From Escherichia phage 1W: DNA of 49,662 bases. Both the position numbers and the translations under genes were made by a program. The stretch lies in the sequence record OM475428; one strand, 5' to 3'. Positions 5,687-46,385 of the stretch are shown here, in pieces (positions within the stretch are counted from its first letter, which is position 1; each line of letters begins with the position of its first letter). Below the pieces are notes generated by a model. It did not search any database. It was not told where the DNA came from and saw only the letters and a program-made list of their open reading frames with translations.

Positions 5687-5722
5687 AGCCAGTGCTGACC
5701 ATCAATAGGAGGTTTTAACAAT

Positions 5723-8910: not shown

Positions 8911-8917
8911 GGACGAT

Positions 8918-9658: not shown

Positions 9659-9673
9659 TCCGGAGAGTCAGCG

Positions 9674-21738: not shown

Positions 21739-23352
21739 ATGAGTCAGAAATACCTCATTCGCATCGCAGAGCTGGAAAGGTTGCTCTCTGAGCAGGCTGA
21801 AGCCCTCCGTCAGAAAGACCAGCAACTGAGTCTGGTTGAAGAGACGGAAGCCTTCCTGCGCTCTGCACTGACACGTGCCGAAGAAAAGATCGAAGAAGAT
21901 GAACGGGAAATAGAACATCTGCGGGCTCAGATAGAAAAACTGCGCCGGATGCTGTTCGGTACCCGTTCTGAAAAACTGCGTCGTGAAGTTGAACTGGCTG
22001 AGGCTCTGCTGAAACAACGTGAACAGGACAGCGATCGTTACAGTGGGCGGGAAGACGATCCTCAGGTTCCCCGCCAGTTGCGACAGTCGCGCCATCGTCG
22101 TCCGTTACCGGCACACCTTCCCCGTGAAATACACCGCCTGGAGCCAGAAGAAAGCTGTTGCCCGGAGTGTGGCGGTGAGCTGGATTATCTGGGGGAAGTC
22201 AGCGCTGAACAGCTGGAACTGGTGAGCAGTGCCCTGAAAGTGATCCGCACAGAACGGGTAAAAAAAGCCTGTACAAAATGTGACTGTATTGTTGAAGCAC
22301 CGGCGCCGTCCCGCCCGATAGAGCGTGGTATCGCGGGCCCCGGATTACTTGCCCGCGTGTTAACGGGAAAATACTGCGAACATCTGCCACTGTATCGTCA
22401 GAGTGAAATCTTTGCCCGCCAGGGTGTCGAACTGAGCCGGGCCTTACTCTCCAACTGGGTTGACGCGTGCTGCCAGTTAATGACACCGGTGAATGATGCC
22501 CTGTACCGTTATGTAATGAATACCCGCAAGGTTCACACTGATGACACACCGGTAAAGGTACTGGCACCGGGTCAGAAAAAGGCGAAAACAGGGCGTATCT
22601 GGACGTATGTCCGGGATGATCGCAATGTGGGTTCGTCATCTCCTCCAGCGGTCTGGTTCGCGTACTCGCCGAACCGGCAGGGGAAACACCCGGAGCAACA
22701 CCTCCGCCCCTTCCGGGGTATCCTGCAGGCGGATGCGTTCACAGGTTACGACAGGTTGTTCAGTGCAGAACGTGAAGGTGGTGCACTGACAGAAGTTGCG
22801 TGCTGGGCCCATGCCCGGCGAAAAATCCACGATGTATACATCAGCAGCAAAAGTGCGACGGCAGAAGAAGCCCTGAAGCGAATCAGTGAACTGTACGCCA
22901 TCGAGGATGAAATACGGGGATTACCGGAGTCAGAGCGTCTTGCCGTCAGGCAGCAGCGAAGCAAAGTGTTACTGACGTCGCTGCATGAATGGATGGTGGA
23001 GAAGAATGGTACGCTGTCGAAAAAATCCAGACTGGGCGAAGCGTTCAGCTATGTACTGAATCAGTGGGATGCCCTCTGTTATTACAGTGATGACGGTCTG
23101 GCGGAGGCGGATAATAATGCTGCGGAAAGAGCGCTTCGTGCAGTCTGTCTCGGAAAGAAAAACTTTATGTTCTTTGGCAGCGATCACGGCGGCGAGCGTG
23201 GAGCACTGTTGTACGGGCTGATCGGCACCTGCCGTCTGAACGGTATCGATCCGGAAGCGTATCTGCGCCATATCCTGAGCGTACTGCCGGAATGGCCTTC
23301 CAACCGAGTTGACGAACTCCTGCCATGGAACGTAGTACTCACCAATAAATAA
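21739..23352 (+). CDS. IS66 family transposase (orf3, DDE with zinc ribbon)
   Basis: 537 aa; N-terminal coiled coil, CPECGGEL zinc-ribbon motif, conserved IS66 transposase core. Confidence 0.85.
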   Translation: MSQKYLIRIAELERLLSEQAEALRQKDQQLSLVEETEAFLRSALTRAEEKIEEDEREIEHLRAQIEKLRRMLFGTRSEKLRREVELAEALLKQREQDSDRYSGREDDPQVPRQLRQSRHRRPLPAHLPREIHRLEPEESCCPECGGELDYLGEVSAEQLELVSSALKVIRTERVKKACTKCDCIVEAPAPSRPIERGIAGPGLLARVLTGKYCEHLPLYRQSEIFARQGVELSRALLSNWVDACCQLMTPVNDALYRYVMNTRKVHTDDTPVKVLAPGQKKAKTGRIWTYVRDDRNVGSSSPPAVWFAYSPNRQGKHPEQHLRPFRGILQADAFTGYDRLFSAEREGGALTEVACWAHARRKIHDVYISSKSATAEEALKRISELYAIEDEIRGLPESERLAVRQQRSKVLLTSLHEWMVEKNGTLSKKSRLGEAFSYVLNQWDALCYYSDDGLAEADNNAAERALRAVCLGKKNFMFFGSDHGGERGALLYGLIGTCRLNGIDPEAYLRHILSVLPEWPSNRVDELLPWNVVLTNK

Positions 23353-24195: not shown

Positions 24196-25053
24196 CTAAT
24201 TGGGTGATAACAGATCCTGTGTATGGGAGTTTCCCTTTTTGCGTGCGTTGATGCTGGTAACGGCAAACGTCATGATGAACAAAACCGCGAATAAGACGAC
24301 AATCGTCGGAGCTGGTGCGCTGTCGATAAAAAAGGACAACCAGACACCAGTCATTGACACTATTACCGATATGCCAGTCGCCAGTAGGAGCGCAATATGA
24401 AAGCGTTGTGTCAGGAGTACCGCAATGGCGCCAGGCGCAATGAGCAGAGAAATGGAGAGAATGATACCTACCGCTTTCAGCGTCGCCACAATGGTCAGAG
24501 AGACCATGCACAGCAGCCCATAATGCAGCCATCTCGTATGCAAACCGCTTACCTGCGCCTGTTGATAATCAAAGCTGAACAGCAAAAAATCCCGCCATTT
24601 TACGCTAATAACAAGTGTAACCAGCCCGGCAATAATCATCGTCTGGATTATATCGCCGATGGTTATCCCGAGCATGTCGCCGAAAAGAATATGGTCAAGA
24701 TGTACGTCTGGTTTGACTGCAATATACAAGATCAGACCTGCGGCAAACATGCCAGAAAAAACAATCCCCATCACTGTATCTTGCTTGATTCGGCTGTTGT
24801 CTTTCAGGTATCCCGTCGCCACCGCGCAGAATACTCCGGCGACGAATGCCCCTGTAGCCAAAGGTAACCCCAGAATCCAGGCAAGCACGATGCCAGGAAA
24901 AACCGCATGACTCATCGCGTCACCCATCAGTGCCCAACCTTTCAGGACCAGAAAGACCGACAGCAGCGCACAGGGTATGGAAACTACCAGTGAAATCAGC
25001 AGTGCGTGACTCATAAAGGTGAACTGCAGTGGCTCCAGTAATAATGCCATCAT
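24196..25053 (-). CDS. sitD: Mn/Fe ABC transporter permease SitD
   Basis: 285 aa polytopic membrane protein, ABC-3 permease family; last gene of a four-gene operon with overlapping stop/start junctions. Confidence 0.85.
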   Translation of the reverse strand: MMALLLEPLQFTFMSHALLISLVVSIPCALLSVFLVLKGWALMGDAMSHAVFPGIVLAWILGLPLATGAFVAGVFCAVATGYLKDNSRIKQDTVMGIVFSGMFAAGLILYIAVKPDVHLDHILFGDMLGITIGDIIQTMIIAGLVTLVISVKWRDFLLFSFDYQQAQVSGLHTRWLHYGLLCMVSLTIVATLKAVGIILSISLLIAPGAIAVLLTQRFHIALLLATGISVIVSMTGVWLSFFIDSAPAPTIVVLFAVLFIMTFAVTSINARKKGNSHTQDLLSPN

Positions 25054-25907
25054 GAGCGATCCTCCAGCGCCTTATGCGCACGCCGACGATTTGCCAAAAG
25101 CCCATGGGTGGGCGCAAAGACAAATGCTAAAAGAAACAGCAGTGTCTGCGCCACCACGATGATTCCACCTGTCGCGCCGTCCAGAAAGTAACTGACCCAC
25201 GCGCCGAGGAAACTGGTTACACTGCCAATAGTTACAGCAATCATGAGCAGGCGGGGAAAACGATCGGTTAACAACCATGCTGTTGCACCGGGAGTCACCA
25301 CCAGACAGATCACCAGAAAGGCACCAACCGTTTGCAGCGCCGCAACGGTCGAAACCGACAGCAGGGTGAAGAAGAGGAGTTTTAATCTGCCCGGATGCAA
25401 TCCAATAGCACGGGCGTGATTCTCGTCGAAAAAGGTCACCATAAGATCTTTCCATTTGAAAAAAAGCACGATGATCGAGAGAATGCCAATGATAGTGAGT
25501 TGCAGGATATCCGCCGGATCGATTGCCAGAATATTGCCCAGGACGATGGTCTGAATGTTCACAGATGTCGGGTTCAATGACACCATAAACAGCCCCAGGC
25601 CAAAAAAGGACGAGAAGATCAGACCGATGATGGCATCTTCTTTTAAGCGGGTGCGTTGGTTAAGAAACAGCATGCTGCCCGCAGCCAGTCCGCCGGAAAA
25701 GAAGGCTCCCAGAGAAAACGGAAGCCCCAGCATATATGCCCCCGCAACACCCGGGACAATAGAGTGCGACAACGCATCGCCAATCAGCGACCAGCCTTTT
25801 AGCATCAGATAGCATGACAGGAAAGCGCAGAGACCGCCGACCATCGCCGAGACCCACATCGCATTGAGCATATATTCATAGCTGAAGGGTTCCAGTAGCA
25901 CGTTCAT
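25050..25907 (-). CDS. sitC: Mn/Fe ABC transporter permease SitC
   Basis: 285 aa paralogous permease; overlaps neighbours by 4 nt. Confidence 0.85.
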
Positions 25908-26731
25908 CTTTCTTCCCTCTGCACCGCTGACGGTCGATGAGCCACAAAAGGGCGTTCATCGTCAGTAATAATGCTTTCTTCCGAGCCGTTAAGTGTGACA
26001 TGGCGCAGTACGCCGCTAAAAGCCAGCTCTAGGTTCTCGGCTGTAAAAGTGGTGTCTGTCGGCCCGCTTGCCAGGACGGTGCCTTTGACCATGACCGTAT
26101 AATCGCAAAATGTCGTGACGGATCCGAGATTGTGTGTTGAGACAAGCATCGTTTTGCCTTCCGCGCGTAACTCCCTCAACAGGCTGATGATTTTGGCTTC
26201 GGTTTTCACATCAACGCCAGTAAAAGGTTCATCCAGCAGGATCACATCACCCTGCTGTGCAATCGCTCTCGCCAGAAAGACGCGTTTCTTTTGTCCACCG
26301 GAAAGCTCGCCGATTTGTCGATGGCGAAAATTCACCATATCGACACGTTCCAGCGCATCGGTGACAATTTGACGATCCCTCTTTTTGGCGATACGCAACA
26401 TACCCATATGCCCATAGCGGCCCATCATCACCACATCTTCCACCAGTACAGGAAATGACCAGTCAACCTCTTCTGACTGAGGGACGTAGGCAACCAGGTT
26501 TTTCTGTAACGCCTGTCGCGTGGGAATACCCAGAACAGATATCTTTCCGCTGGTCAGACGCACAAATCCCATAATCGCTTTAAACAACGTCGATTTTCCG
26601 GAACCGTTTACCCCAACCAGAGCGGCAATAGATCCACTTGGTACTGTGAAGGATGCATCGCGCAGTGCTGTGTGCCCGTTATGCCAGGTGACAGCAACAT
26701 CATTAACGACAATGCCTGCAGATTGCATCAT
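25904..26731 (-). CDS. sitB: Mn/Fe ABC transporter ATP-binding protein SitB
   Basis: Walker [13 protein letters not shown] signature LSGGQKKR, Walker B ILLDEP. Confidence 0.9.
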
Positions 26732-27645
26732 TATTTCTCCCTTTTCCCGGCTTTAATTCCCTGTACCAGCGTACTGGTAGTAACCTTAAGAAGGTCGATA
26801 TACGTCGGTACCGGGCCGTTTTCTGTGCTCAGGGAATCGACATAGAGCACACCGCCGTAGTGTGCGCCGGTTTCACGCGCAACCTGACGCGCTGGTTTAT
26901 CGGAAATCGTACTCTCGCTAAAGACTGCCGGGATATGATTTTTCTTAACTATATCAACAACCTTACGTACCTGCTGCGGTGTTCCTTGTTGATCGGCATT
27001 AATCGGCCACAGATAAAGCTCTTTTAGCCCCAAATCGCGTGCGAGATAAGAAAAAGCCCCTTCACTGGTGACCATCCATCGCTGATTCTCAGGGAGTTCC
27101 GTAATCTGCTTACGCAGGGGGGCAAGGGTTTGGGTAATCTTGGCTTTATAAGTATCGGCATTGCGTTGGTAGGTTTGTGCATTTGCCGGATCGTATTTTA
27201 TCAACGCATCACGAATATTATCGACGTAAATCAGAGCATTATCTGGCGACATCCATGCATGGGGGTTAGGTTTGCCCTCATAGGGTCCTTCGGTGATCCC
27301 TACAGGCGTCACACCCGAAGAGACAATTACTTCTGGAACCCCATTGAGATGCTGGTAAAAGCGTTGGAACCACAATTCCAGATTCATACCATTGGCGAGA
27401 ATCAGTTGTGCCCCCTGCGCACGTTTAATATCGCCAGGGGTAGGCTGATACTCATGAATTTCTGCACCAGGCTTGGTTATGGATGAGACTTCTGCAGCAT
27501 CTCCCGCCACGTTTTTGGCCATATCCGCGATGATGGTAAATGTTGTAATGACCTTAAATTTTTCAGTTGCACTTGCCTGAAATGCGATCGAGCAGGTGAG
27601 TGCGAGGCCCCCCAAGAGCATGGTTACTTTTTTTATTGAGCGCAT
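26731..27645 (-). CDS. sitA: Periplasmic Mn/Fe-binding protein SitA (cluster A-I substrate-binding protein) with signal peptide
   Basis: 304 aa; N-terminal signal peptide; TroA/ZnuA-like fold features; first gene of the operon. Confidence 0.9.
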
Positions 27646-28838: not shown

Positions 28839-29981
28839 CTATGCTGTTTTGATATCTACGATAATCCAGTCTTTACCACGATCATCATTGTATCGGTCGG
28901 TCATTTTTCTGGATTTATGGCCTAACAACTTTTGCGTATCCAGACCCTGTTCCCGATATAACCGTTCTGACAGAGATCGCTGCTCATGAAATGTGGGCGC
29001 AGTTCCTTGCTCCCATTTTATGCCACATTTTTCCCTGGCCTTTTTAAAAGCCGTTGTCAGAGTATTCGCAGAAACCTGGTCTCCTCTGTTTGCTTGAGAG
29101 GTTGTGTGACGGTAATGGACCAGATATTTACTAACAACAGCATCCCTGCACTGAGATATAACTTCACGAAGGGTAATATTCAGAGCATCGCATTTCAGGT
29201 TAAGCGGAATAGCAAGTTTTGAACCGGTTTTTTCCTGAGTAATGTGCAACATGTCGTCCCAGATATCAGAGAATTTCAAATTGCAGATATCGCCTAAACG
29301 TTGTCCAGTGACAAGAGCAAGTAGCATCCCGCATTTTAAATAGGGCTGCCGTCTGCTTACGCTGTCAAATATTGCCTGCCATTCGGGCAGTGATAATCTT
29401 TGGCGGTTTACTCGATTTCGCGGTTGTTTTGTTGCCTGCGCTGGGTTAAATCCTGGCGGAACATGTCCTGCGTGTTGTGCTTCTTTGAAGACGTCGATTA
29501 ACACCATTCTCACGACTTGCGCCATCCTGTTATGACCTTCAGCCTTTACAGCATCAATTATTTCGGCAATATCAAGTGCGGTAATATCCTTGAGGTGTTG
29601 CATTCCACAATGCTCACGGAAAAGACGAATGGGTTTGCCTTTTTGCCGATAGGAGTTGGGTCTTAGTTCATTATGTTGCAGCCTGTCCTCCTGGATAGAA
29701 ATATATTTATCAAGCCATTCTGTCACCGTAATGTCTGAGCGCCTGCCTTTCATTCTTTCCAGACGCTCATTGACGCTTAATATTTGTCGGGTACGTTGTT
29801 CAGCAATAATGGTATTTGCTTCAGTAGCAACTTGTTTTGCTTCATTCTCATCAGTTCCTAAGCTATGAAAACGACCGGATAGTGGATGTTTGTATTGCCA
29901 ATATACCTTTCCGGTTCGCTTATCTAATTTGCAATATAAATTGGGTATAGAGATTTTGTGAGATCGGGGTCTAGCAGCCAT
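28839..29981 (-). CDS. int: Tyrosine integrase (lambda Int family)
   Basis: 380 aa; C-terminal catalytic region LLGHKSRKMTDRYNDDRGKDW resembles lambda Int (LLGHKSDTMASQYRDDRG); adjacent to xis and att. Confidence 0.9.
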   Translation of the reverse strand: MAARPRSHKISIPNLYCKLDKRTGKVYWQYKHPLSGRFHSLGTDENEAKQVATEANTIIAEQRTRQILSVNERLERMKGRRSDITVTEWLDKYISIQEDRLQHNELRPNSYRQKGKPIRLFREHCGMQHLKDITALDIAEIIDAVKAEGHNRMAQVVRMVLIDVFKEAQHAGHVPPGFNPAQATKQPRNRVNRQRLSLPEWQAIFDSVSRRQPYLKCGMLLALVTGQRLGDICNLKFSDIWDDMLHITQEKTGSKLAIPLNLKCDALNITLREVISQCRDAVVSKYLVHYRHTTSQANRGDQVSANTLTTAFKKAREKCGIKWEQGTAPTFHEQRSLSERLYREQGLDTQKLLGHKSRKMTDRYNDDRGKDWIIVDIKTA

Positions 29982-34107: not shown

Positions 34108-34485
34108 TTACGCAGGTAGGTAAAGATATGATTGTGGTGGCTTAATATTACTACCTAGAGCAGAGATAGGAATTGGTTCTTTATATCTTTCCACTTCACC
34201 AATTTTTATTGCGTAGGCCTTTTCTCTACCTGAATAATATGAGTCATAAAATTGCTTAGAAATACCTGCGTGTTTTTCCGTCTTTTTCCAAAGAGATTCC
34301 GGTTCGTCACTTAGTATTGATTCAATACGGAATTGACCAACAACTTTACCTAATGGCATCGTGGCATAAATAACAACGGTGCTAATTTGCGGATTTTTGA
34401 ATATACCTTTACGAAACTCGAACCGCTTTGTTCCGTTCAATATTTTTTCTGCAAACTCAGGCTTAATGGATAATAAAACTTTCAT
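34108..34485 (-). CDS. ASCH-domain (PUA-like fold) protein; second gene of the candidate cI-linked accessory operon
   Basis: 125 aa; N-terminal pattern MKVLLSIKPEFAEKILNGTKRFEFRK is typical of ASCH domains; AT-rich; start overlaps the upstream gene by 23 nt. Confidence 0.6.
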   Translation of the reverse strand: MKVLLSIKPEFAEKILNGTKRFEFRKGIFKNPQISTVVIYATMPLGKVVGQFRIESILSDEPESLWKKTEKHAGISKQFYDSYYSGREKAYAIKIGEVERYKEPIPISALGSNIKPPQSYLYLPA

Positions 34486-35536
34486 TTATCTTGCCTAACT
34501 CGATGATCTTTAAGAACTGCTCATTTGTGAGTTTAAAGTGACTCCATCGGAATGCACGCGAACCATTTAGCCCCACATGATCTATTAAAATAGCACGATT
34601 GGGTCTCTTTGGCAAAGACAGATTGTATGTGAATCTTATAATGAAAGGGTATCGACGTTCTTTATAGATTTTTCTGAGTTCATCTTCAGAAAATACGCTA
34701 AAACGAATACAATAGTCTACAAAACTATCTTCGCTTAAAAATTCAGAAATATTTTTTACGCTCTCAACTACACATAATGTACTGGCTACAGAACGATAGC
34801 GAGCTGGCCCTTTTTTGTCTCCGGTTCTATAGATGACAATGATATCTCCTCTTTTCATTCCCATCACAGAACGCATTCCACATATGTAAATTTTATGAAT
34901 GCTGTTAGCATGGGATATATCTTTGACAATATCTGGTGATTCATTTACAAGTTTTGAATCAGGGAATAGTCTAGTGTGATATTCGGGATAAATCGCCAGT
35001 AAATATTTGTTGGCCCTTGATGTCATTATTCGAGGGTAATCTAATAAAATATCACCATAAGGCTCATGCAAAGACCTCGCATATACAAACTCTTTCCCGT
35101 TATGTGTTTCTTTTTCACCATGAATGTAAAATCCGTACGTTTGGAAAAGTTTTATTAGATGGACGTGTTTGTCGAAAACAGTAACATAAATATCATCAGA
35201 TTTTGATGAAAATGCATGGTCAAACGCTTTTTTTAGAAATCGTTGTCCGCGAAGGGTGCCTTTAGATTCAAATTTGAATGTTCCTATCTTTAGATGACGT
35301 CCTGGTGGGAGCGCTGGATTAATGTCATTTGCATCATCATTTTCTTTTAGATACATAAAACCTTCGATTTTATGCTTGTCATCATAGAGCACATAAGCTG
35401 ATTCTCCTTCTCTGGCTTTTTTTTCTAACCAAAGAGGAAACTCTTTATAATCTTTTTTTAAAGAGTCAAAAAATGGGTCATTGTGATCAAAATCAGAGAA
35501 TTTCTCATATTTTAAAGTATCCATTAAGTTCTCCAT
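34463..35536 (-). CDS. 357-aa protein with N-terminal GNAT-like acyltransferase-type motifs and an uncharacterised, possibly PUA-like, C-terminal region; first gene of the candidate cI-linked accessory operon
   Basis: ATG 68 bp downstream of the cI stop, same strand; motifs LRGQRFLKKAF and HLIKLFQTYGFYIHGEK resemble GNAT motifs A and B; AT-rich relative to the phage backbone. Confidence 0.5.
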   Translation of the reverse strand: MENLMDTLKYEKFSDFDHNDPFFDSLKKDYKEFPLWLEKKAREGESAYVLYDDKHKIEGFMYLKENDDANDINPALPPGRHLKIGTFKFESKGTLRGQRFLKKAFDHAFSSKSDDIYVTVFDKHVHLIKLFQTYGFYIHGEKETHNGKEFVYARSLHEPYGDILLDYPRIMTSRANKYLLAIYPEYHTRLFPDSKLVNESPDIVKDISHANSIHKIYICGMRSVMGMKRGDIIVIYRTGDKKGPARYRSVASTLCVVESVKNISEFLSEDSFVDYCIRFSVFSEDELRKIYKERRYPFIIRFTYNLSLPKRPNRAILIDHVGLNGSRAFRWSHFKLTNEQFLKIIELGKINESFIIH

Positions 35537-38221: not shown

Positions 38222-38919
38222 AAAACATCGCCGCACAGATGGTTAACTTTGACCGTGAGCAGATGCGCCGGATCGCCAACAACATGCCGGAACAGTACGA
38301 CGAAAAGCCGCAGGTACAGCAGGTAGCGCAGATCATCAACGGTGTGTTCAGCCAGTTACTGGCAACTTTCCCGGCGAGTCTGGCTAACCGTGACCAGAAC
38401 GAACTGAACGAAATCCGCCGCCAGTGGGTTCTGGCTTTCCGGGAAAACGGGATCACCACAATGGAACAGGTTAACGCAGGAATGCGCGTAGCCCGTCGGC
38501 AGAATCGACCATTTCTGCCATCACCCGGGCAGTTTGTTGCATGGTGCCGGGAAGAAGCATCCGTTATCGCCGGACTGCCAAACGTCAGCGAGCTGGTTGA
38601 TATGGTTTACGAGTATTGCCGGAAGCGAGGCCTGTATCCGGATGCGGAGTCTTATCCGTGGAAATCAAACGCGCACTACTGGCTGGTTACCAACCTGTAT
38701 CAGAACATGCGGGCCAATGCGCTTACTGATGCGGAATTACGCCGTAAGGCCGCAGATGAGCTTGTCCATATGACTGCGAGAATTAACCGTGGTGAGGCGA
38801 TCCCTGAACCAGTAAAACAACTTCCTGTCATGGGCGGTAGACCTCTAAATCGTGCACAGGCTCTGGCGAAGATCGCAGAAATCAAAGCTAAGTTCGGACT
38901 GAAAGGAGCAAGTGTATGA
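38218..38919 (+). CDS. P: Replication protein P (DnaB helicase loader)
   Basis: 233 aa; essentially identical to lambda P from recall (MKNIAAQMVNFDREQMRRIANNMPEQYDEKPQVQQVAQIINGVFSQLL). Confidence 0.95.
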   Translation: MKNIAAQMVNFDREQMRRIANNMPEQYDEKPQVQQVAQIINGVFSQLLATFPASLANRDQNELNEIRRQWVLAFRENGITTMEQVNAGMRVARRQNRPFLPSPGQFVAWCREEASVIAGLPNVSELVDMVYEYCRKRGLYPDAESYPWKSNAHYWLVTNLYQNMRANALTDAELRRKAADELVHMTARINRGEAIPEPVKQLPVMGGRPLNRAQALAKIAEIKAKFGLKGASV

Positions 38920-39218
38920 CGGGCAAAGAGGCAATTATTCATTACCTGGGGACGCATAAGAGCTTCTGTGCACAGGACGTTGCCGCGGTAACAGGCGCAA
39001 CCGTAACCAGCATAAATCAGGCTGTGGCTAAAATGGCGCGGGCAGGAATCCTGGTCGTTGATGGTAAGGTCTGGCGAACGGTGTATTATCGGTTCGCTAC
39101 CAGAGAAGAACGGGAAGGAAAGGTGAGCGCGAATTTGATTTTTAAGGAGTGTCGCCAGAGTGCCGCGATGAAACGGGTATTGAGGGTATATAAAAGAACA
39201 TCAATGGGTACACAATGA
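38916..39218 (+). CDS. ren: Ren (Rex exclusion relief protein)
   Basis: 100 aa; near-identical to lambda Ren from recall (MTGKEAIIHYLGTH). Confidence 0.85.
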   Translation: MTGKEAIIHYLGTHKSFCAQDVAAVTGATVTSINQAVAKMARAGILVVDGKVWRTVYYRFATREEREGKVSANLIFKECRQSAAMKRVLRVYKRTSMGTQ

Positions 39219-39285
39219 TGAAACAGGTGAGTTGAGTTCAAACTGTAGTACAATTCTCTCCAGTTTGAACAGGAAAGAATATGCT

Positions 39286-39618
39286 ATGAACCCTTATATT
39301 TATCTTGGTGGTGCAATACTTGCAGAGGTCATTGGTACAACCTTAATGAAGTTTTCAGAAGGTTTTACACGGTTATGGCCATCTGTTGGTACAATTATTT
39401 GTTATTGTGCATCATTCTGGTTATTAGCTCAGACGCTGGCTTATATACCTACAGGGATTGCTTATGCTATCTGGTCAGGAGTCGGTATTGTCCTGATTAG
39501 CTTACTATCATGGGGATTTTTCGGCCAACGGTTGGACCTGCCAGCCATTATAGGCATGATGTTGATTTGTGCCGGTGTGTTGGTTATTAATTTATTGTCA
39601 CGAAGCACACCACATTAA
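39286..39618 (+). CDS. emrE: SMR-family multidrug efflux protein EmrE
   Basis: 110 aa from MNPYIYLGGAILAEVIGTTLMKFSEGF; matches E. coli EmrE (encoded in the DLP12 prophage) from recall; four TM helices. Confidence 0.9.
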   Translation: MNPYIYLGGAILAEVIGTTLMKFSEGFTRLWPSVGTIICYCASFWLLAQTLAYIPTGIAYAIWSGVGIVLISLLSWGFFGQRLDLPAIIGMMLICAGVLVINLLSRSTPH

Positions 39619-39873
39619 AAATAATTTATTTTTAAACGACTAAAATATGGAGGTTCGTATATTTGTATGGGCCTCGTTTTATGCTTTTTGTTAATGTCTT
39701 TAGTTTTTATTCATTCTTTTGATCTTTCAAGACCATGGTGTAAGAAAATTGCAATACGATTATTGTTGTATATTCAAGATAATGTGACCTTAATTGTCTT
39801 TTTAAATAAAAATTAAACAAAAATCATATCTCACCACTAAGGTTTATAAAAGCATACTTTAGCAGGTGTCACC

Positions 39874-41400
39874 ATGAAAAAAGCCATAGCATATATGCGA
39901 TTTTCATCACCAGGTCAGATGTCTGGTGATTCATTAAACCGCCAGAGAAGGCTTATTACTGAATGGCTAAAGGTAAATAGTGATTATTACCTTGATACCG
40001 TAACGTATGAAGATTTGGGGTTAAGCGCATTCAATGGAAAGCATGCACAATCAGGAGCTTTTTCGGAATTTTTAGATGCTATAGAACATGGTTACATATT
40101 GCCAGGGACTACATTGTTAGTTGAAAGTCTGGACAGACTTTCAAGAGAAAAAGTCGGTGAAGCGATTGAGCGTCTGAAATTGATTTTGAATCACGGTATT
40201 GATGTTATAACTCTTTGCGATAATACAGTCTATAATATAGACTCATTGAATGAGCCATATTCATTAATAAAAGCCATACTTATAGCACAAAGGGCAAATG
40301 AAGAAAGCGAGATAAAGTCAAGTCGGGTTAAATTATCATGGAAGAAAAAACGGCAGGATGCACTGGAATCAGGCACGATTATGACGGCGTCTTGTCCGAG
40401 ATGGCTCTCATTGGATGACAAAAGAACAGCTTTTATTCCAGACCCCGACAGGGTGAAAACGATTGAGCTAATTTTTAAACTCAGGATGGAAAGGCGATCA
40501 TTGAATGCAATAGCTAAGTATTTAAATGATCATGCTGTAAAAAATTTTTCAGGAAAAGAAAGTGCATGGGGGCCTTCTGTAATTGAAAAATTATTAGCGA
40601 ATAAAGCTCTGATAGGTATATGCGTACCTTCATATCGTGCAAGAGGGAAAGGGATAAGTGAAATCGCTGGCTATTATCCCAGAGTCATATCAGATGATTT
40701 GTTTTACGCTGTACAGGAAATTCGGTTGGCACCTTTTGGTATTAGCAATAGTAGCAAGAATCCTATGCTAATAAATCTACTTCGAACAGTTATGAAGTGT
40801 GAGGCTTGTGGTAATACCATGATTGTTCATGCGGTATCTGGACGTTTGCATGGCTATTATGTTTGTCCGATGAGAAGATTACATCGATGTGACAGGCCAT
40901 CAATAAAAAGAGATTTGGTTGATTATAATATCATTAATGAATTGCTTTTTAATTGTAGCAAAATTCAACCAGTTGAAAACAAGAAAGATGCTAATGAAAC
41001 TTTAGAGTTAAAAATTATTGAGCTTCAGATGAAAATTAATAATTTAATCGTTGCATTGTCTGTCGCGCCTGAAGTTACCGCTATAGCAGAGAAAATAAGA
41101 CTATTAGATAAGGAATTACGAAGGGCTTCGGTATCATTAAAAACTTTGAAGAGTAAAGGGGTGAGTTCACTTGGTGATTTTCATGCTATTGATTTAACCA
41201 GTAAAAATGGGCGAGAGCTATGTCGTACACTTGCCTATAAAATATTCGAAAAAATTATAATTAATACAGATAATAAAACCTGTGATATCTATTTTATGAA
41301 TGGCATTGTTTTTAAACACTATCCTTTAATGAAAGTAATATCCGCCCAGCAGGCGATAAGTACTCTTAAATATATGGTTGATGGTGAGGTTTATTTTTGA
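39874..41400 (+). CDS. ybcK: Large serine recombinase (resolvase/invertase catalytic domain, recombinase domain, zinc ribbon); DLP12 YbcK-like
   Basis: 508 aa; N-terminal catalytic region with a Ser in MRFSSPGQ; Cys cluster CEACGN...CPMRRLHRC; AT-rich gene. Confidence 0.8.
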   Translation: MKKAIAYMRFSSPGQMSGDSLNRQRRLITEWLKVNSDYYLDTVTYEDLGLSAFNGKHAQSGAFSEFLDAIEHGYILPGTTLLVESLDRLSREKVGEAIERLKLILNHGIDVITLCDNTVYNIDSLNEPYSLIKAILIAQRANEESEIKSSRVKLSWKKKRQDALESGTIMTASCPRWLSLDDKRTAFIPDPDRVKTIELIFKLRMERRSLNAIAKYLNDHAVKNFSGKESAWGPSVIEKLLANKALIGICVPSYRARGKGISEIAGYYPRVISDDLFYAVQEIRLAPFGISNSSKNPMLINLLRTVMKCEACGNTMIVHAVSGRLHGYYVCPMRRLHRCDRPSIKRDLVDYNIINELLFNCSKIQPVENKKDANETLELKIIELQMKINNLIVALSVAPEVTAIAEKIRLLDKELRRASVSLKTLKSKGVSSLGDFHAIDLTSKNGRELCRTLAYKIFEKIIINTDNKTCDIYFMNGIVFKHYPLMKVISAQQAISTLKYMVDGEVYF

Positions 41401-41724
41401 GTAATAATCACTTTTTCAACCGTGCTATGGTATGAAAGTAAAGTAACTAATATGATATTAACTATCTTGAACGAAGCGCCCTGAGCTATAGTTTTACTAT
41501 AGGCACTGTCACTGGATGTTGGCATTCTTGCTCTAGTAGCTCAACAATACCCAATCACAAAACAATTCACTGATAACAAACTTTGTGCACGTGCTTGGTT
41601 ATGGCGAACAGGTGATGTTAACCTCTTGCCAGAATGCCACTCCACTTCATTAAGTATCTGAGCACCGAGAGGCTGGTCACGCCCCCATTAAAAATAATTT
41701 CTTTTGAATCGAGTGAAATAGGTT

Positions 41725-41751
41725 AGCCCGCATAAGTGCGGGCTGCTTTTT
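41725..41751. terminator. Bidirectional hairpin terminator between ybcK and the convergent hydrolase gene
   Basis: Stem agcccgca / tgcgggct followed by gcttttt on the plus strand; abuts the hydrolase stop on the minus strand. Confidence 0.6.
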
Positions 41752-42793
41752 ACAGGTCAGCGTTTGTTTTTTGTTGTTGGGTAGCGGTTTTTATGGGGGT
41801 TCCCAGGTTTTTAGTAAACCACTCAACAACTCTGTTTATAATAATTGGCTGATACCATGTATTATCGCCATGCTCGGCCCCTTCTACCAGCACGTACTCA
41901 GCGTTATCACCGTTCTTCTTCAACATCCTGAATAGTTTGGCGCTTTGCTCAGGTGAAACCAGAGTGTCTTTGCTACCATGCATAATAAGAAATGGGGGTT
42001 TTACTCCTTTCATATGTCCGATTGGACTGGCGTTTAGCGCTTTTTCTTTTGACGCTGTGATGGGGGCTCCCGCAAAATTTCTGAATGCAGGGCCATTGAT
42101 CATTAAGGCTTCGGTTACGGCAGGAGAGCGATGAACCTCCTGCACTGATTCAGGGAACCCCTCGCCAATATTCAACAAGTCAGAAATCCCATAAAGTGTG
42201 GCAACTGCCTGAACATCTGAGGATTGCTGAAGAAAGTCACCTTTATCAAAGGTTTTGTCACCATTTGTAGTTCCCATCATCTGGGCAAGCCATCCACCGG
42301 CAGAGTCACCCAGAACTCCGATTCTTTGAGGATCAATCCCATAATTGCTGGCATGCTCTCTCAGGTAACGTATTGCAGCTTTTCCATCCTCAACTGGTGC
42401 TGGAAATGTATCAGGAATTGTTCTGTATTCTACAGCGGCCACAACAAAACCAGCTTCTGCCAGAGCCATTCTCATTTCAATAAATTTGTCATGTTCAGAA
42501 GACATGAATCCGCCGCCGGGATAATAAATAATGGCTGGTTTTAAATCATTTGTTCGCGGGACAAGAACTGACATGTGAAGCTGTCTGACAGAACGAGTTC
42601 CTTTTATCTGGGAATAAACAACATCACCAATGAGATCGACCTGGTTTCTGGTCGGTGAAACACTAATGATATCTGCACCCGGGGTGTAACCAGGAAGATT
42701 AGTCTGGACAGGTGTTGCACAACTCCCGACCGACATGGCCATTGACATACCATACAATAGTGTTGCAGATGATAATATCTTGTTAATTTTCAT
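41750..42793 (-). CDS. Secreted/lipoprotein alpha/beta-hydrolase (esterase/lipase family)
   Basis: 347 aa; signal peptide with a Cys (MSVGSC); oxyanion-hole motif YYPGGGF; nucleophile elbow GDSAGG. Confidence 0.75.
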   Translation of the reverse strand: MKINKILSSATLLYGMSMAMSVGSCATPVQTNLPGYTPGADIISVSPTRNQVDLIGDVVYSQIKGTRSVRQLHMSVLVPRTNDLKPAIIYYPGGGFMSSEHDKFIEMRMALAEAGFVVAAVEYRTIPDTFPAPVEDGKAAIRYLREHASNYGIDPQRIGVLGDSAGGWLAQMMGTTNGDKTFDKGDFLQQSSDVQAVATLYGISDLLNIGEGFPESVQEVHRSPAVTEALMINGPAFRNFAGAPITASKEKALNASPIGHMKGVKPPFLIMHGSKDTLVSPEQSAKLFRMLKKNGDNAEYVLVEGAEHGDNTWYQPIIINRVVEWFTKNLGTPIKTATQQQKTNADL

Positions 42794-43240
42794 GTTTTAC
42801 ATGCCTTGACTTATCGGATGAAATTCTCTTACTGAATTTAACGGCAGTTTAATAGCCGTACAACTCGTGGTAGCCAGGGAAATATCCCAGTCGTGGTTAA
42901 GGTTGTACTTGACGGCTATTATTTCAACAATGCTTAAAGTGAGAGCTTAAGGTTATGCGTATGTTTTACAGTCCGAGTAGATTCTGACCAATAGCTTCTT
43001 TGTATAATTCTGTCAGAAATAAATCTTGGCTTGCATGAAGTTTGAGACCTTATCTTGTTTGATTATGAATAATCAATTCGCCATAATTGTATCACCGGAG
43101 CCTGAACAACTCCGGTGACTTCTGCGCTAAACGGGGACGTTTATGCGCACACACAATCCAAACTCTCTTCTCCCTTCACAGATGCAGAAATGCACCTGCG
43201 TTTTTTTGCATCCAGCGTCTGACCTCTGTGGAGGTGAAGC

Positions 43241-43696
43241 GTGAACCTACCACAAGATGGCATCAAACTGCATCGCGGTAACTTCATCGCTATCGGCCAG
43301 CAGATCCAGCCTTATCTGGAGGACGGAAAATGCTTTCGCATGGTGCTTAAACCGTGGCGTGAGAAACGCAGTCTTTCCCAGAATGCACTCAGCCATATGT
43401 GGTACAGCGAAATCAGTGAATACCTCATCAGCAGGGGGAAATCGTTCGCTACCGCAGCATGGGTAAAAGATGCTCTCAAACACACATACCTCGGTTATGA
43501 AACCAAGGACCTGGTTGATGTCGTAACCGGCGAAATCACTACTATCCAGTCGTTACGCCATACCTCCGATCTTGATACCGGAGAGATGTATGTCTTCCTG
43601 TGTAAGGTTGAAGCCTGGGCGATGAATATTGGCTGCCACCTGACTATTCCGCAGAGCTGCGAGTTCCAGCTGCTGCGCGACAAGCAGGAGGCGTAA
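43241..43696 (+). CDS. ybcN: YbcN-like protein (DLP12 nin-region protein)
   Basis: 151 aa; matches my recollection of E. coli YbcN; located in the nin region before ninE. Confidence 0.7.
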
Positions 43697-45302: not shown

Positions 45303-46385
45303 TTAGAACTGATAAACCAGACCTACAGCGACGATGTCGTCGGTATCAATACCAGCTGTTTTGGTAAACTTACTATCGTCAATTAAGTTGATTTTGTAAT
45401 CAACAAAAGTGGACATGTTTTTATTAAAGTAGTAAGTAGCACCGACATCGACATACTTGACTAAGTCTCGGTCACCATGAACACCAAGGTCTTTACCTTT
45501 TGACTGAAGGTAAGCAACAGATGGTCGCAGACCGAAGTCAAACTGATATTGTGCTACTGCTTCAAAGTTTTGTGCTTTGTTTGCAATATGGTTATTACCA
45601 AAAACGGTCATATTCTGAGTTTCAGAATATGTGGTAGCCAGATAGATATTGTTCGCATCATATTTCAGGCCTGCAGCCCATACTTCCGCATTTTTGCCGG
45701 AGGCATTGAATTTGCTCTTACCATAGGCGACCTGACCGTCAGTGCGATCTGATTTAGCATAGGTTGCACCCACGCCGAATCCTTCATACTCATAAGTAGT
45801 GGAGAAACCGAAACCATCACCATTGACTTCAGTTACGTCAGTGCGGTCATTTTTACCCTGATACTGAGCAGCAAAGTTCAGGCCATCGACCAGACCAAAG
45901 AAGTCGTTGTTACGATAAGTTGCAACACCAGTAGTGCGACCAGTCATGAACACATCTGTTTGGGTCCAGGTATCACCACCGAATTCTGGCAGGACGTCAG
46001 TCCACGCACCGATGTCGTATGCTACACCGTAGTTACGGCCGTAATCGATTGAGCCGTAATCACCAAATTTCAGGCCTGCAAATGCAAGACGGGTTTTGTC
46101 TTTGGAAGAACCTTGAGATTCAGCACGGTTGCCTTTGAATTCATATTCCCACTGACCGAAACCAGTCAGTTGATCGTTGATTTGGGTTTCACCTTTGAAG
46201 CCAAGACGGGCATAAGTAGTATCACCATCATCTGCATCATTAGAGGAGAAGTAGTGCTTGGCATTAACTTTCCCGTATAGATCCAGCTTGTTACTGTCTT
46301 TATTATAAATTTCAGCTGCCTGAGCAGACATCGCCATCAGTACTGATGCAGCTACAGCAGAAATTGCCACTGTTAATTTTTTCAT
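45303..46385 (-). CDS. nmpC: Outer membrane porin (OmpC/OmpF/NmpC-Lc family) with signal peptide
   Basis: 360 aa; signal peptide ending AQA-AEIYNK; C-terminal aromatic residue (VYQF); the position between Q and lysis genes matches DLP12 nmpC and PA-2 lc. Confidence 0.85.

What the first reader, a model, noticed from the sequence alone, without database searches (positions are those of the whole stretch)
39286..42793. Cargo block in the replication-nin junction: emrE efflux pump, large serine recombinase and a secreted alpha/beta-hydrolase
Between ren and the nin genes sits a block of non-phage functions: an SMR multidrug transporter, a 508-aa large serine recombinase and a convergently oriented lipoprotein-type esterase/lipase with a GDSAGG nucleophile elbow. 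The recombinase and hydrolase genes are AT-rich and separated by a bidirectional terminator. The phage already has a tyrosine integrase, so the serine recombinase may be a relic of another element or may control a DNA inversion; the hydrolase could modify host surface or lipid substrates. emrE and ybcK are known from the cryptic DLP12 prophage; here they are in an apparently intact phage genome.
Basis: partly seen in the sequence, partly recalled or inferred. Interest (0 to 1): 0.45.

Follow-up and report, generated by a model that had tools for sequence, protein, structure and literature searches.

The report
Known cargo genes in lambdoid phage
Between the replication and nin genes, this lambda-like E. 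coli phage carries three separately acquired passenger units: the EmrE drug pump, an intact large serine recombinase (YbcK) of unknown target, and a lipoprotein esterase. The block is already present, base for base, in published phage genomes, so it is largely ordinary.

Summary
emrE (39286-39618), a missed small gene ylcJ (39667-39816), ybcK (39874-41400, a 508-aa large serine recombinase) and a convergent esterase (41750-42793, minus strand) lie between ren and ninB.

Bases 39200-43300 are 100% identical in six isolated phages (4C10, 4A7, 3W, Perceval, PhiR47_2; D2 over 96% of the stretch). So the block is already known and annotated.

It is not one unit. The esterase also occurs without ybcK, and emrE occurs without ybcK. 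The slot after ybcK holds ybcL-ybcM, other small ORFs or nothing in related prophages.

YbcK has every catalytic and zinc-binding residue and folds like SPbeta, Bxb1 and PhiC31 integrases. It is under strong purifying selection (dN/dS about 0.07), so it is not a decaying relic. I found no inverted repeats or flipped orientations that would suggest an invertible segment.

The esterase has a complete Ser164-Asp276-His308 triad and a lipobox.

One open lead remains. ylcJ-ybcK plus 282 bp sits between two direct copies of CATTAAAAATAATTT, and two E. coli genomes have the exact empty site. Unequal recombination between phages explains this best. Self-insertion by the recombinase is not excluded.

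The parts
38916..39218 (+). ren (left anchor of the cargo slot; last gene of the replication module)
   Evidence: PHROG Ren-like exclusion protein 3.8e-41; annotated RenD homolog in phage Perceval.
39286..39618 (+). emrE, a 110-aa SMR multidrug/quaternary-cation exporter
   Evidence: Pfam PF00893 2e-35. NCBIfam EmrE 240.6 bits, above the 226 cut-off. Glu14 present. Also found without ybcK next to ybcL-ybcM in Nissle 1917.
39610..39647 (+). Direct repeat copy 1. It covers the last codons and stop of emrE, the 15-nt core CATTAAAAATAATTT (39613-39627) and a perfect 10-1-10 palindrome TTAAAAATAA-T-TTATTTTTAA (39615-39635).
   Evidence: the repeat finder D1 and I1. The core occurs exactly twice in the window, with 0.19 expected by chance.
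39650..39675 (+). Terminator-like hairpin after emrE, overlapping the ylcJ start
   Evidence: In K-12 the leader upstream of ybcK also holds a Rho-dependent terminator (PMC4150792).
39667..39816 (+). ylcJ, a 49-aa hydrophobic small protein that always travels with ybcK in E. coli
   Evidence: Pfam PF23688 YlcJ-like 1e-28. Frameshifted in strain TW10573, so probably dispensable.
39874..41400 (+). ybcK, a 508-aa large serine recombinase: catalytic domain 1-125, helix E 128-166, recombinase domain about 178-285, zinc ribbon 307-345 with coiled coil 346-427, and a C-terminal beta-rich extension 444-508
   Evidence: Pfam. Invariant R9, S11, D87, R88, R91, Q139, R140 and C309/C312/C331/C339. The family profile hits SPbeta SprA at 1e-5. 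The AF2 model has pLDDT 78. Foldseek top hits are the SprA, Bxb1, PhiC31 and LI integrases. dN/dS is 0.06-0.08.
41401..41682 (+). Decayed remnant of a P22AR-C-terminal-domain ORF: start ATG changed to CTG, a 5-nt deletion, an in-frame stop, and truncation at 41682
   Evidence: Alignment with phage Turner. The ORF is intact at 108 aa in Turner and broken here. Annotation in TW10573.
41683..41720 (+). Direct repeat copy 2: an emrE 3'-end remnant (CCCCATTAA) plus the core CATTAAAAATAATTT (41686-41700). It forms the left end of the hydrolase module.
   Evidence: E. coli F467 and Rb-50 carry a single hybrid copy with emrE joined directly to the hydrolase.
41724..41745 (.). GC-rich hairpin (9 bp stem, 6 GC pairs) followed by TTTTT on the + strand. 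It is the shared terminator of emrE and the hydrolase in the arrangement that lacks ybcK.
41750..42793 (-). Lipoprotein-type alpha/beta-hydrolase esterase (BD-FAE / hormone-sensitive-lipase-like): Ser164, Asp276, His308, oxyanion loop PGGGF 92-96, lipobox VGSC with Cys25 and Ala at +2
   Evidence: Pfam BD-FAE 5.5e-45. PDB 6nkf at 1e-37, with the motifs aligned. Motif positions. PHROG esterase 1e-129. Chromosomal homologs at 63-80% identity in Dickeya, Pectobacterium, Pantoea, Klebsiella and Rhizobium.
42794..43057 (-). Upstream region that travels with the hydrolase gene. It presumably holds the gene's own leftward promoter, though only weak consensus matches are present.
   Evidence: Present with the hydrolase in ST131 and F467 prophages. 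Homology to DLP12-type and Turner-type phages resumes only at about 43058.
43058..43240 (+). Conserved right anchor of the slot: promoter-like TTGATT-17-CATAAT (43059-43087) and a 33-aa ORF (43143-43244) upstream of ninB/ybcN (43241-43696)
   Evidence: The phage 82 record X92588 annotates -35 and -10 signals and orf33 here.

Best explanation
The region is a composite cluster of passenger genes ('morons') at the ren/P-ninB junction of DLP12-like (Bievrevirus-type) lambdoid phages. It was built stepwise by unequal and short-homology recombination between related phages and prophages, not acquired as one element.

**Unit 1, emrE.** A proton-coupled SMR exporter. It would give lysogens tolerance to quaternary cations. 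This is inferred from family membership.

**Unit 2, ylcJ-ybcK.** ybcK encodes a complete, selectively maintained large serine recombinase.
- It lies in the rightward early (pR) transcription direction.
- In K-12 it is kept silent by a Rho-dependent terminator in its leader. I therefore infer that it is made mainly during lytic or induced growth, when N antitermination operates.
- I infer that it acts as a site-specific recombinase on a still unidentified pair of sites, and serves the phage rather than the host.
- It is not the phage's main integrase; a lambda-type tyrosine integrase holds that position.
- It does not invert the neighbouring cargo.

**Unit 3, the esterase.** A self-contained, leftward-transcribed lysogenic-conversion gene. 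It encodes an exported, lipid-anchored Ser-Asp-His esterase related to feruloyl, acetyl-xylan and acetyl esterases. It ends at a hairpin terminator that it originally shared with emrE.

**The duplicated 38-nt emrE 3' end (39610-39647 and 41683-41720).** This is the scar of an unequal crossover between two phages. One was Turner-like (emrE-ylcJ-ybcK-P22AR-C ORF). The other was F467-like (emrE followed directly by the convergent hydrolase).

Shown: gene content, intactness, identity to known phages, independent assortment, purifying selection, the repeats and the empty sites.

Inferred: expression timing, substrates, the target of YbcK, and the order of recombination events.
For: **Identity to isolated phages.** The block is 100% identical in six phages. 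4C10 and 4A7 are inducible and plaque-forming.

**Independent assortment.**
- ST131 prophages have P - inverse autotransporter - the same hydrolase (99%) - ybcN.
- F467 has ren-emrE-hydrolase-ybcN.
- Nissle 1917 has fliE | emrE-ybcL-ybcM-porin | yedK with no ybcK.
- DLP12-type phages have ybcL-ybcM after ybcK.
- Turner and TW10573 have a P22AR-C ORF plus small ORFs after ybcK.
- O157:H7 has nothing between ybcK and ybcN.

**Prevalence.** 1399 of 5426 complete E. coli genomes carry ren-emrE-ylcJ-ybcK. 174 carry the window's ybcK-hydrolase junction.

**YbcK is intact.** dN/dS is 0.06-0.08.

**Mosaic joints elsewhere.** A homolog at 60% identity in another lambdoid nin region is bracketed by a 181-nt, 86%-identical partial duplication of the downstream DUF1367 gene. 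That repeat is far too long to be an attachment site and is typical of unequal inter-phage crossover.

**The spacer.** The 41401-41682 spacer is a broken copy of the Turner ORF and ends exactly where Turner homology ends.

**Only the gene moves.** Visibly very similar recombinases (not quantified) in L026 (nin region) and L013 (prophage end) share only the gene plus about 65 bp upstream.

**Esterase.** Family, triad and lipobox are.

**Silencing.** Rho-dependent silencing of ybcK in K-12 is reported in PMC4150792.
Against: - No target sites for YbcK were identified, so its role is an inference.
- Two independent joints both fall within about 15 nt of the emrE stop codon. One is the window type. 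The other is the DLP12 type, where homology to the emrE-ybcL islet begins at the 'ATTA' of the emrE stop. This is somewhat unlikely for random illegitimate recombination and hints at a preferred or site-specific crossover point.
- Copy 1 of the repeat is a perfect palindrome, as recombinase sites often are.
- Expression timing was not measured for this phage.
- The esterase substrate is unknown. None of the NCBIfam equivalog models reaches its cut-off.
Confidence: 0.7

Rival explanations
1. ylcJ-ybcK plus its 282-bp tail is a self-inserting mini-element of 2073 bp. YbcK recombines the pseudo-palindromic site at the 3' end of emrE (attB-like) with a similar site on the excised circle. The two direct repeat copies would then be attL and attR. 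This would resemble SCC elements, where Ccr serine recombinases insert at the 3' end of rlmH.
For: - Two exact direct copies of CATTAAAAATAATTT bracket the recombinase gene. They are the only two in 49.7 kb, with 0.19 expected.
- Copy 1 is a perfect 10-1-10 palindrome.
- Natural empty sites exist in the same prophage context in E. coli F467 and Rb-50. Their crossover maps inside the 15-nt core.
- A second occupied/empty pair exists (DLP12 type versus the Nissle islet), with its left edge at the same point.
- The recombinase is intact and under purifying selection.
Against: - Turner, TW10573 and O157 prophages carry ylcJ-ybcK with no second core copy.
- The DLP12-type right junction matches the core at only about 10 of 15 positions (my own count by eye; no tool measured it). 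Its tail is unrelated to the window's beyond about 70 nt.
- The right end of the supposed element cuts through a decayed ORF that continues in Turner.
- No flanking repeats were found around seven homologs in other species.
- Two visibly very similar homologs (identity not quantified) share no DNA beyond the stop codon.
- The palindrome has an odd centre, whereas serine recombinases cut at a central dinucleotide.
- No circle or tandem junction was found in 5426 E. coli genomes or in IMG/VR. Assemblies would rarely show one.
Confidence: 0.12
2. YbcK is a second working integrase that lets the phage integrate or excise at an alternative chromosomal site.
For: - PHROG 95 'integrase', 5.6e-120.
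- The structure matches serine integrases.
- Homologs at 50-59% identity in Atlantibacter, Yersinia, Erwinia and Ewingella lie after the tail-fibre assembly genes at or near a prophage end. In three of the four, host genes (ssrA/smpB, lepA, an aldehyde dehydrogenase gene) follow directly. In Yersinia an autotransporter gene lies between, and a P2-like prophage follows.
Against: - In every E. coli context examined, ybcK is internal to the prophage, between ren/emrE and ybcN. It is never at a prophage-chromosome junction.
- The phage has a lambda-type tyrosine integrase in the usual position.
- No attP-like site conserved across homologs was found next to the gene.
- A very similar recombinase occurs both at a prophage end and in a nin region. 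This suggests that even the 'terminal' copies may be cargo.
Confidence: 0.15
3. YbcK is a DNA invertase that flips the adjacent cargo segment.
For: The hydrolase is oriented opposite to the surrounding operon. Serine recombinases include invertases; there is a weak PHROG 125 'DNA invertase' match at 2e-21, covering the catalytic domain only.
Against: - No inverted repeats flank 41683-43057 or any other segment. The longest inverted pairs are 14-24 nt at 71-93% and are not positioned as flanks.
- The hydrolase keeps the same orientation relative to ybcN in all listed genomes, including those without ybcK.
- The protein has the long integrase-type C-terminal domains, not the roughly 190-aa invertase architecture.
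Confidence: 0.02
4. YbcK is a decaying relic with no current function.
For: - It is silent in K-12 under Rho control.
- It is deleted in the cargo-only islet of Nissle 1917. An emrE-only match is the best hit in about 2,800 further genomes whose context was not checked.
- It is truncated in O104:H4.
Against: - dN/dS is 0.06-0.08 over dS of 0.13-0.16.
- The gene is full length with all catalytic residues across homologs at 40-98% identity.
- The sampled full-length matches among the 1399 genomes are mostly annotated as a recombinase-family CDS. Intactness was not checked genome by genome.
Confidence: 0.03
5. YbcK-type recombinases are cargo with a non-integrase role, such as defence or counter-defence, or rearrangement of the host or a competitor genome. 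This would explain why they recur in the classical moron and defence slots of prophages.
For: - The family recurs in nin regions in three diverged lineages: E. coli, L026/L027 at about 60% identity, and Pantoea dispersa at 42%.
- It also recurs after the tail-fibre genes.
- In L026 it lies about 2.3 kb downstream of a SIR2-domain gene, with small ORFs in between.
- Only the gene plus about 65 bp upstream moves between contexts.
Against: There is no match to any PADLOC defence model, no partner gene conserved across contexts, and no experimental hint. The only reported phenotype is raised sabinene tolerance on over-expression.
Confidence: 0.08

Closest known systems
DLP12 cryptic prophage of E. 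coli K-12 (ren-emrE-ylcJ-ybcK-ybcL-ybcM-ybcN...)
   Same: Same backbone position and the same ren-emrE-ylcJ-ybcK unit. ybcK is 96-98% identical. The downstream genes ybcN, ninE, ybcO, rusA, ylcG and quuD and the porin are also the same.
   Different: The slot after ybcK holds the convergent esterase instead of ybcL-ybcM. The phage here is complete and matches plaque-forming isolates.
Escherichia phages Lambda_4C10, 4A7, 3W, Perceval (Bievrevirus), PhiR47_2 and D2
   Same: The block is 100% identical across window 39200-43300 and its genes are already annotated (EmrE; YbcK or 'large serine recombinase'; alpha/beta hydrolase or esterase).
   Different: Nothing within the block. D2 differs to the left of window position 39373.
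Large serine recombinases / serine integrases (SPbeta SprA, Bxb1, PhiC31, Listeria A118/LI)
   Same: The same four-part architecture and catalytic residues. Foldseek E-values run from 4e-18 to 2e-10.
   Different: Only 14-20% identity to these proteins. A single-sequence search of the PDB finds nothing. The gene is not in the phage's integration module. No att sites or directionality factor are known.
SCC elements with Ccr serine recombinases; Tn4451/Tn5397 (TnpX/TndX)
   Same: A recombinase gene bracketed by short direct repeats, with one repeat overlapping the 3' end of a conserved gene. Empty sites exist in nature. The comparison itself rests on my own knowledge of these systems.
   Different: The repeats are found in only one of four arrangements. 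No circular form was seen. The element would carry nothing but the recombinase and ylcJ.
BD-FAE / hormone-sensitive-lipase-like esterases (such as PDB 6nkf Lip_vut4 and the acetyl xylan esterases 6xyc and 6tkx)
   Same: The same fold family, GDSxG nucleophile elbow, HGG-type oxyanion loop and Asp/His positions.
   Different: It carries a lipoprotein signal peptide and is phage-borne. The substrate is untested, and it is below the cut-off of every NCBIfam equivalog.

Membership tests
Large serine recombinase (serine integrase) | N-terminal resolvase-type catalytic domain with the nucleophile Ser and conserved Arg residues | tested here: met
   Pfam Resolvase 8e-19. R9, S11, D87, R88 and R91 are invariant in 20 homologs.
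Large serine recombinase (serine integrase) | Recombinase domain plus a zinc-ribbon domain with four Cys and an embedded coiled coil | tested here: met
   Pfam Recombinase 2e-14 and Zn_ribbon_recom 5e-8. C309, C312, C331 and C339 are invariant. The model has helices at 346-364, 367-397 and 402-427. The model aligns over its full length to the SprA, Bxb1 and PhiC31 integrases.
Large serine recombinase (serine integrase) | A cognate attP/attB pair and unidirectional recombination | not testable with these tools
   Candidate sites are only the 15-nt core repeats. This needs a recombination assay.
Phage integration module | Gene adjacent to attP at the junction that becomes the prophage ends | tested here: not met
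   ybcK is internal, between ren/emrE and ninB, in every E. coli context seen. The int position is held by a tyrosine integrase.
EmrE (SMR family) | A protein of about 110 aa scoring above the curated EmrE model cut-off, with the essential Glu14 | tested here: met
   NCBIfam NF042984 at 240.6 bits, above 226. Glu14 is in MNPYIYLGGAILAE.
Alpha/beta-hydrolase esterase (BD-FAE / HSL-like) | Ser-Asp-His triad with a GxSxG elbow and an oxyanion loop | tested here: met
   S164 in GDSAG, D276, H308 and PGGGF at 92-96. The motifs align with 6nkf.
Bacterial lipoprotein | Signal peptide ending in a lipobox [LVI][ASTVI][GAS]C | tested here: inconclusive
   VGSC with Cys25 follows a hydrophobic stretch. 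Gly at position -2 is an uncommon but tolerated residue. No signal-peptide predictor was available.
Invertible-segment system (Gin/Hin/Cin type) | Inverted repeats flanking the segment, and both orientations found in nature | tested here: not met
   No flanking inverted repeats. A single orientation in all listed genomes.
Serine-recombinase mobile cassette (SCC/Ccr-like) | Direct repeats at both ends, empty sites, and the same ends wherever the element occurs | tested here: inconclusive
   Repeats and empty sites are present for the window type. The second repeat is absent in the Turner, TW10573 and O157 types and degenerate in the DLP12 type.
Lambdoid 'moron' cargo | Composition unlike the backbone, own terminator, and presence or absence independent of neighbouring phage genes | tested here: met
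   GC of 26-45% against 50% for the backbone. Hairpin terminators. Independent assortment.
Known anti-phage defence systems (PADLOC) | A match to a defence-protein model | tested here: not met
   No hits for emrE, ylcJ, ybcK or the hydrolase.

The most novel reading that the evidence does not exclude
YbcK is an active recombinase that moves its own 2.07-kb ylcJ-ybcK cassette into and out of the palindromic site at the 3' end of emrE. More broadly, YbcK-type recombinases may be minimal selfish or cargo genes that hop between the moron slots of enterobacterial prophages and are not prophage integrases. The widespread orphan recombinase of E. coli K-12 would then be the smallest known serine-integrase mobile element.
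Probability: 0.12. Interest if true: 0.6.

Novelty: already known. Interest (0 to 1): 0.27.

Why it matters
The block itself adds little. It is already in GenBank phage genomes with the same annotations, and emrE and ybcK are classic DLP12 genes.

Its value is as a clear example of how the ren-ninB junction of lambdoid phages collects, swaps and sheds host-benefit genes, here a drug pump, an esterase and, further downstream, a porin. Inducible phages carry these genes in about a quarter of sequenced E. coli genomes.

The one open question is YbcK. It is an intact, strongly conserved large serine recombinase present in 1399 of 5426 complete E. coli genomes, including K-12, and no target or function is known for it. 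The repeat-bracketed indel and the natural empty sites found here make a simple PCR or plasmid assay for its activity possible.

Tried and rejected
- **Inverted-repeat search for an invertible segment**: nothing flanks the hydrolase or any other unit.
- **Defence models, PADLOC**: no hits.
- **Rfam scan of 38800-43400 at E up to 0.1**: no RNA family.
- **Single-sequence PDB search with YbcK**: no hit. A family profile and a fold search were needed.
- **Flanking direct repeats around seven YbcK homologs in other genera**: none comparable.
- **Conserved non-coding motif upstream of ten homologs**: none beyond the ribosome-binding region.
- **Predicted circle or tandem junction** in 5426 E. coli genomes and IMG/VR: absent.
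- **Tails after ybcK, window type versus DLP12 type**: only the first 70 nt or so are weakly similar (score 25 against 19 +/- 2.4 for shuffles). The equal cassette length of about 2.07 kb in the two types is therefore probably a coincidence.
- **The search for related loci with a single protein in genome contigs**: only four loci, so contexts were gathered one protein at a time.
- **Context look-up for P0028**: failed.
- **Literature on ybcK**: only a Rho-terminator study and a sabinene-tolerance study. Nothing on recombination.

Full report
**1. What is there**

The window is a complete lambda-like genome. It runs from terminase to tail gene J, then a side tail fibre. An IS66 transposase and a sitABCD-like transporter follow in the b region. 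Next come a lambda-type tyrosine integrase (28839-29981, minus strand), cI, O, P and ren.

Between ren (38916-39218) and ninB/ybcN (43241-43696) lie four genes:
- emrE (39286-39618, +)
- ybcK (39874-41400, +), 508 aa
- an alpha/beta-hydrolase (41750-42793, -), 347 aa

GC content is 41% for emrE, 26% for ylcJ, 36% for ybcK and 45% for the hydrolase. The backbone is at 50%. No Rfam family and no PADLOC defence model matches the block.

**2. The block is already known**

Window 39200-43300 is 100% identical over its full length in Escherichia phages Lambda_4C10, 4A7, 3W, Perceval and PhiR47_2. It is 100% identical over 96% of the stretch in D2. Those records already annotate EmrE, 'YbcK / large serine recombinase' and 'alpha/beta hydrolase / esterase'. 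Phages 4C10 and 4A7 are described as inducible, plaque-forming Bievrevirus prophages in a 2026 bioRxiv paper (10.64898/2026.05.26.727859).

**3. The block is a composite of separate units**

Comparison with related phages and 5426 complete E. coli genomes shows that the units assort independently.

- *ren-emrE-ylcJ-ybcK.* This unit is in 1399 genomes.
- *The slot after ybcK.* It holds ybcL-ybcM in DLP12-type phages. It holds a P22AR-C-terminal-domain ORF plus small ORFs in Turner and TW10573. It holds nothing in O157:H7. It holds the esterase here, in LF82 and in 174 genomes in all.
- *The esterase without ybcK.* The same esterase gene (99% identical) with its 264-bp upstream region occurs after a 4.2-kb inverse-autotransporter gene in ST131 prophages. 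It also occurs directly after emrE in E. coli F467 and Rb-50.
- *emrE without ybcK.* In Nissle 1917, emrE sits next to ybcL-ybcM and a porin gene in a cargo-only islet between fliE and yedK. An emrE-only match at about 92% identity is the best hit in roughly 2,800 further genomes. I inspected only the Nissle context.
- *Right edge of the slot.* It is fixed at about 43058, where a promoter-like element and a 33-aa ORF upstream of ninB are conserved in all types.

**4. The recombinase**

*Architecture.* YbcK has the resolvase, recombinase and zinc-ribbon domains.

*Conserved residues.* I aligned 20 homologs at 40-98% identity from Escherichia, Atlantibacter, Yersinia, Pantoea, Erwinia, Kluyvera, Ewingella and Citrobacter. 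The nucleophile motif R9-F-S11, the E84-SLDRLSRE-92 motif, Q139/R140 of helix E and the four zinc-binding cysteines are invariant.

*Distance from characterised enzymes.* A single-sequence search of the PDB finds nothing. The family profile reaches SPbeta SprA at E = 1e-5.

*Predicted structure.* The AlphaFold model has mean pLDDT 78. It shows a catalytic domain, a long helix E, a recombinase domain, a zinc ribbon with a two-helix coiled coil, and an extra C-terminal beta-rich domain. Its best structural matches are full-length SprA, Bxb1, PhiC31 and Listeria integrases, with E-values from 4e-18 to 2e-10.

*Selection.* Three E. coli allele lineages differ at 39-47 synonymous but only 11-13 non-synonymous sites. 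dN/dS is 0.06-0.08 at dS of 0.13-0.16.

**5. What the recombinase does not do**

- *Not an invertase of the cargo.* No inverted repeats flank the hydrolase or any other unit. The hydrolase keeps one orientation relative to ybcN in all listed genomes, with or without ybcK. The protein is also of the long integrase type, not the roughly 190-aa invertase type.
- *Not in an integrase position.* In E. coli it always lies inside the prophage, and the phage has its own tyrosine integrase.

**6. Where relatives sit**

- *At or near prophage ends.* Homologs at 50-59% identity in Atlantibacter, Yersinia, Erwinia and Ewingella lie after the tail-fibre assembly genes. In three of them host genes follow directly: an intact ssrA and smpB, lepA, and an aldehyde dehydrogenase gene. 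In Yersinia an autotransporter gene lies in between and a P2-like prophage follows.
- *In nin regions.* Homologs at about 60% identity (L026, L027) and at 42% (Pantoea dispersa) sit between the replication genes and the Q antiterminator.
- *On plasmid- or ICE-like DNA.* Two more homologs are in this setting.
- *What moves.* The L026 (nin) and L013 (prophage-end) proteins are visibly very similar, though I did not quantify this. Their loci share only the gene plus about 65 bp upstream.

So the gene moves between the two classical cargo slots of prophages as a bare gene. Whether any family member is a working prophage integrase could not be tested here.

**7. The repeat-bracketed indel**

*The repeats.* ylcJ-ybcK plus a 282-bp tail (2073 bp start to start) lies between two direct repeats, 39610-39647 and 41683-41720. 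They are 84% identical over 38 nt. They share an exact 15-mer, CATTAAAAATAATTT, which occurs nowhere else in the window; 0.19 occurrences are expected by chance. Copy 1 covers the emrE stop codon and is a perfect palindrome, TTAAAAATAA-T-TTATTTTTAA. Copy 2 begins with an emrE-like '...CCCCATTAA' remnant.

*The empty site.* I built the predicted deletion junction and found it, colinear and about 98.8% identical, in two E. coli chromosomes. They have the same prophage context with emrE followed directly by the convergent hydrolase. Their single copy is the left part of copy 1 joined to the right part of copy 2, so the crossover lies inside the core.

*A second pair.* DLP12-type phages and the Nissle islet form a similar pair. 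Homology to the islet resumes exactly at the 'ATTA' of the emrE stop.

*Two readings are possible.*

- Site-specific self-insertion by YbcK, as with SCC/Ccr elements at the 3' end of rlmH.
- Unequal crossover between a Turner-like phage and an F467-like phage. Short-homology recombination could then regenerate the empty form. Red-type recombinases of these phages are known to recombine diverged sequences (PMC2327257 and PMC3945230, listed; I saw only the abstracts).

*Why I favour the second reading.*

- Turner, TW10573 and O157 prophages have ylcJ-ybcK but no second core.
- The right end cuts through a decayed copy of an ORF that is intact and continues in Turner.
- The DLP12-type tail is unrelated beyond about 70 nt.
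- The L026 homolog is bracketed by a 181-nt, 86%-identical partial gene duplication, which is too long to be an att site.
- No such repeats flank seven other homologs.
- No circle junction was found in the databases.

*What remains against it.* Two independent joints fall within about 15 nt of the emrE stop, and the site is palindromic. I therefore keep self-insertion at about 12%.

**8. The esterase**

*Catalytic machinery.* The protein belongs to Pfam BD-FAE (5.5e-45). Its best solved relative is the esterase/lipase 6nkf (1e-37), followed by acetyl-xylan and carbohydrate esterases. Ser164 (GDSAGG), Asp276 (HGSKD) and His308 (EHG) align with the catalytic residues of 6nkf. The oxyanion loop is PGGGF at 92-96. 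The triad is complete.

*Export.* The N-terminus has a hydrophobic stretch and a lipobox, VGSC, with Cys25 and Ala at +2. This suggests an exported lipoprotein. By the Lol sorting rule (my own knowledge), it would probably go to the outer membrane. No dedicated predictor was available.

*Origin.* Homologs at 63-80% identity are chromosomal genes of Dickeya, Pectobacterium, Pantoea, Kluyvera, Klebsiella, Enterobacter and Rhizobium. One is named ferulate esterase by its source. A carbohydrate, acetyl or feruloyl esterase captured from a plant-associated enterobacterium is therefore more likely than a lipid- or surface-modifying enzyme. The substrate is untested, and no NCBIfam equivalog cut-off is reached.

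**9. emrE, and expression of the block**

emrE passes the curated EmrE model and has Glu14.

In K-12, ybcK transcription is blocked by a Rho-dependent terminator in its leader (PMC4150792). Over-expression of ybcK raised sabinene tolerance in BL21 (PMC7181518).

All + strand genes of the block lie in the pR direction. I infer that ybcK is expressed mainly under N antitermination during lytic growth. I also infer that emrE and the esterase act as lysogenic-conversion genes. None of this was measured for this phage.

**10. Verdict**

The feature is a known, already annotated composite of cargo genes. The only real unknown is the target and role of the widespread, selectively maintained recombinase YbcK. 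The repeat and empty-site pair found here gives a cheap experimental handle on that question.

Noticed in passing
window 21739-23352 and 24196-27645: The b region between the tail-fibre genes and int carries an IS66-family transposase (+ strand). It also carries a four-gene sitABCD-like metal ABC transporter on the minus strand: a ZnuA-like binding protein, an ATPase and two ABC-3 permeases. This is a second cargo cluster in the same phage.
   Followed up: partly
window 45303-46385 (-): A 360-aa OmpC/NmpC-like porin gene lies between the Q antiterminator and the lysis genes. It is annotated as a porin in Perceval and in E. coli prophages. The same porin survives with emrE-ybcL-ybcM in the Nissle cargo-only islet.
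   Followed up: partly
L023 (E. coli Nissle 1917, NZ_CP171242.1 2110940-2114383): A cargo-only remnant, emrE-ybcL-ybcM-porin, lies between fliE and yedK with all phage genes and ybcK gone. An emrE-only match at about 92% identity is the best hit in roughly 2,800 of 5426 genomes. This suggests that hosts keep the cargo and shed the recombinase.
   Followed up: partly
L004 (E. coli ST131, NZ_CP103592.1), locus 1703-5968: In ST131 prophages the same junction holds a 1421-aa protein with an inverse-autotransporter (intimin/invasin-like) beta domain. Its gene is convergent with the same esterase gene.
   Followed up: no
L019 (Citrobacter koseri contig), 7652-7826: A tandem heptamer array, (CTTGTTT)n with roughly 19 copies, lies between a divergent 555-aa gene and a 49%-identical YbcK homolog. 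The 555-aa gene has a faint Shufflon_N match, and the setting is plasmid- or ICE-like. It looks like a slipped-strand phase-variation tract.
   Followed up: no
L026 3755-5695 and 7671-7851 / 10651-10831: A lambdoid prophage with a 60%-identical YbcK homolog carries a 646-aa SIR2-domain protein just upstream in the same nin-region slot. It also has a 181-nt, 86%-identical direct duplication of the 5' part of a DUF1367 gene bracketing the recombinase, a KGG-repeat gene and dinI.
   Followed up: partly
L013 (Atlantibacter), 8001-10432: A 59%-identical YbcK homolog is the last prophage gene. It lies 540 bp from the 3' end of an intact tmRNA gene (ssrA, 10070-10432, minus strand), a classic integration hotspot. 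Whether this recombinase is that prophage's integrase is unknown.
   Followed up: partly
window 34463-35536 (-): A 357-aa ORF next to cI has no Pfam match. It occupies the position where lambdoid phages often carry exclusion or defence genes.
   Followed up: no
window 39236-39270: A 13-bp inverted repeat, GTTCAAACTGTAG ... CTCCAGTTTGAAC, lies just upstream of the emrE start codon. It could be an operator or a leader hairpin (pair I21).
   Followed up: no
L031 (E. coli O104:H4), 3871-4843: In the O104:H4 outbreak lineage, a deletion fuses the 5' part of emrE to the 3' part of ybcK and leaves both as pseudogenes. The adjacent P22AR-C ORF has an internal stop.
   Followed up: no
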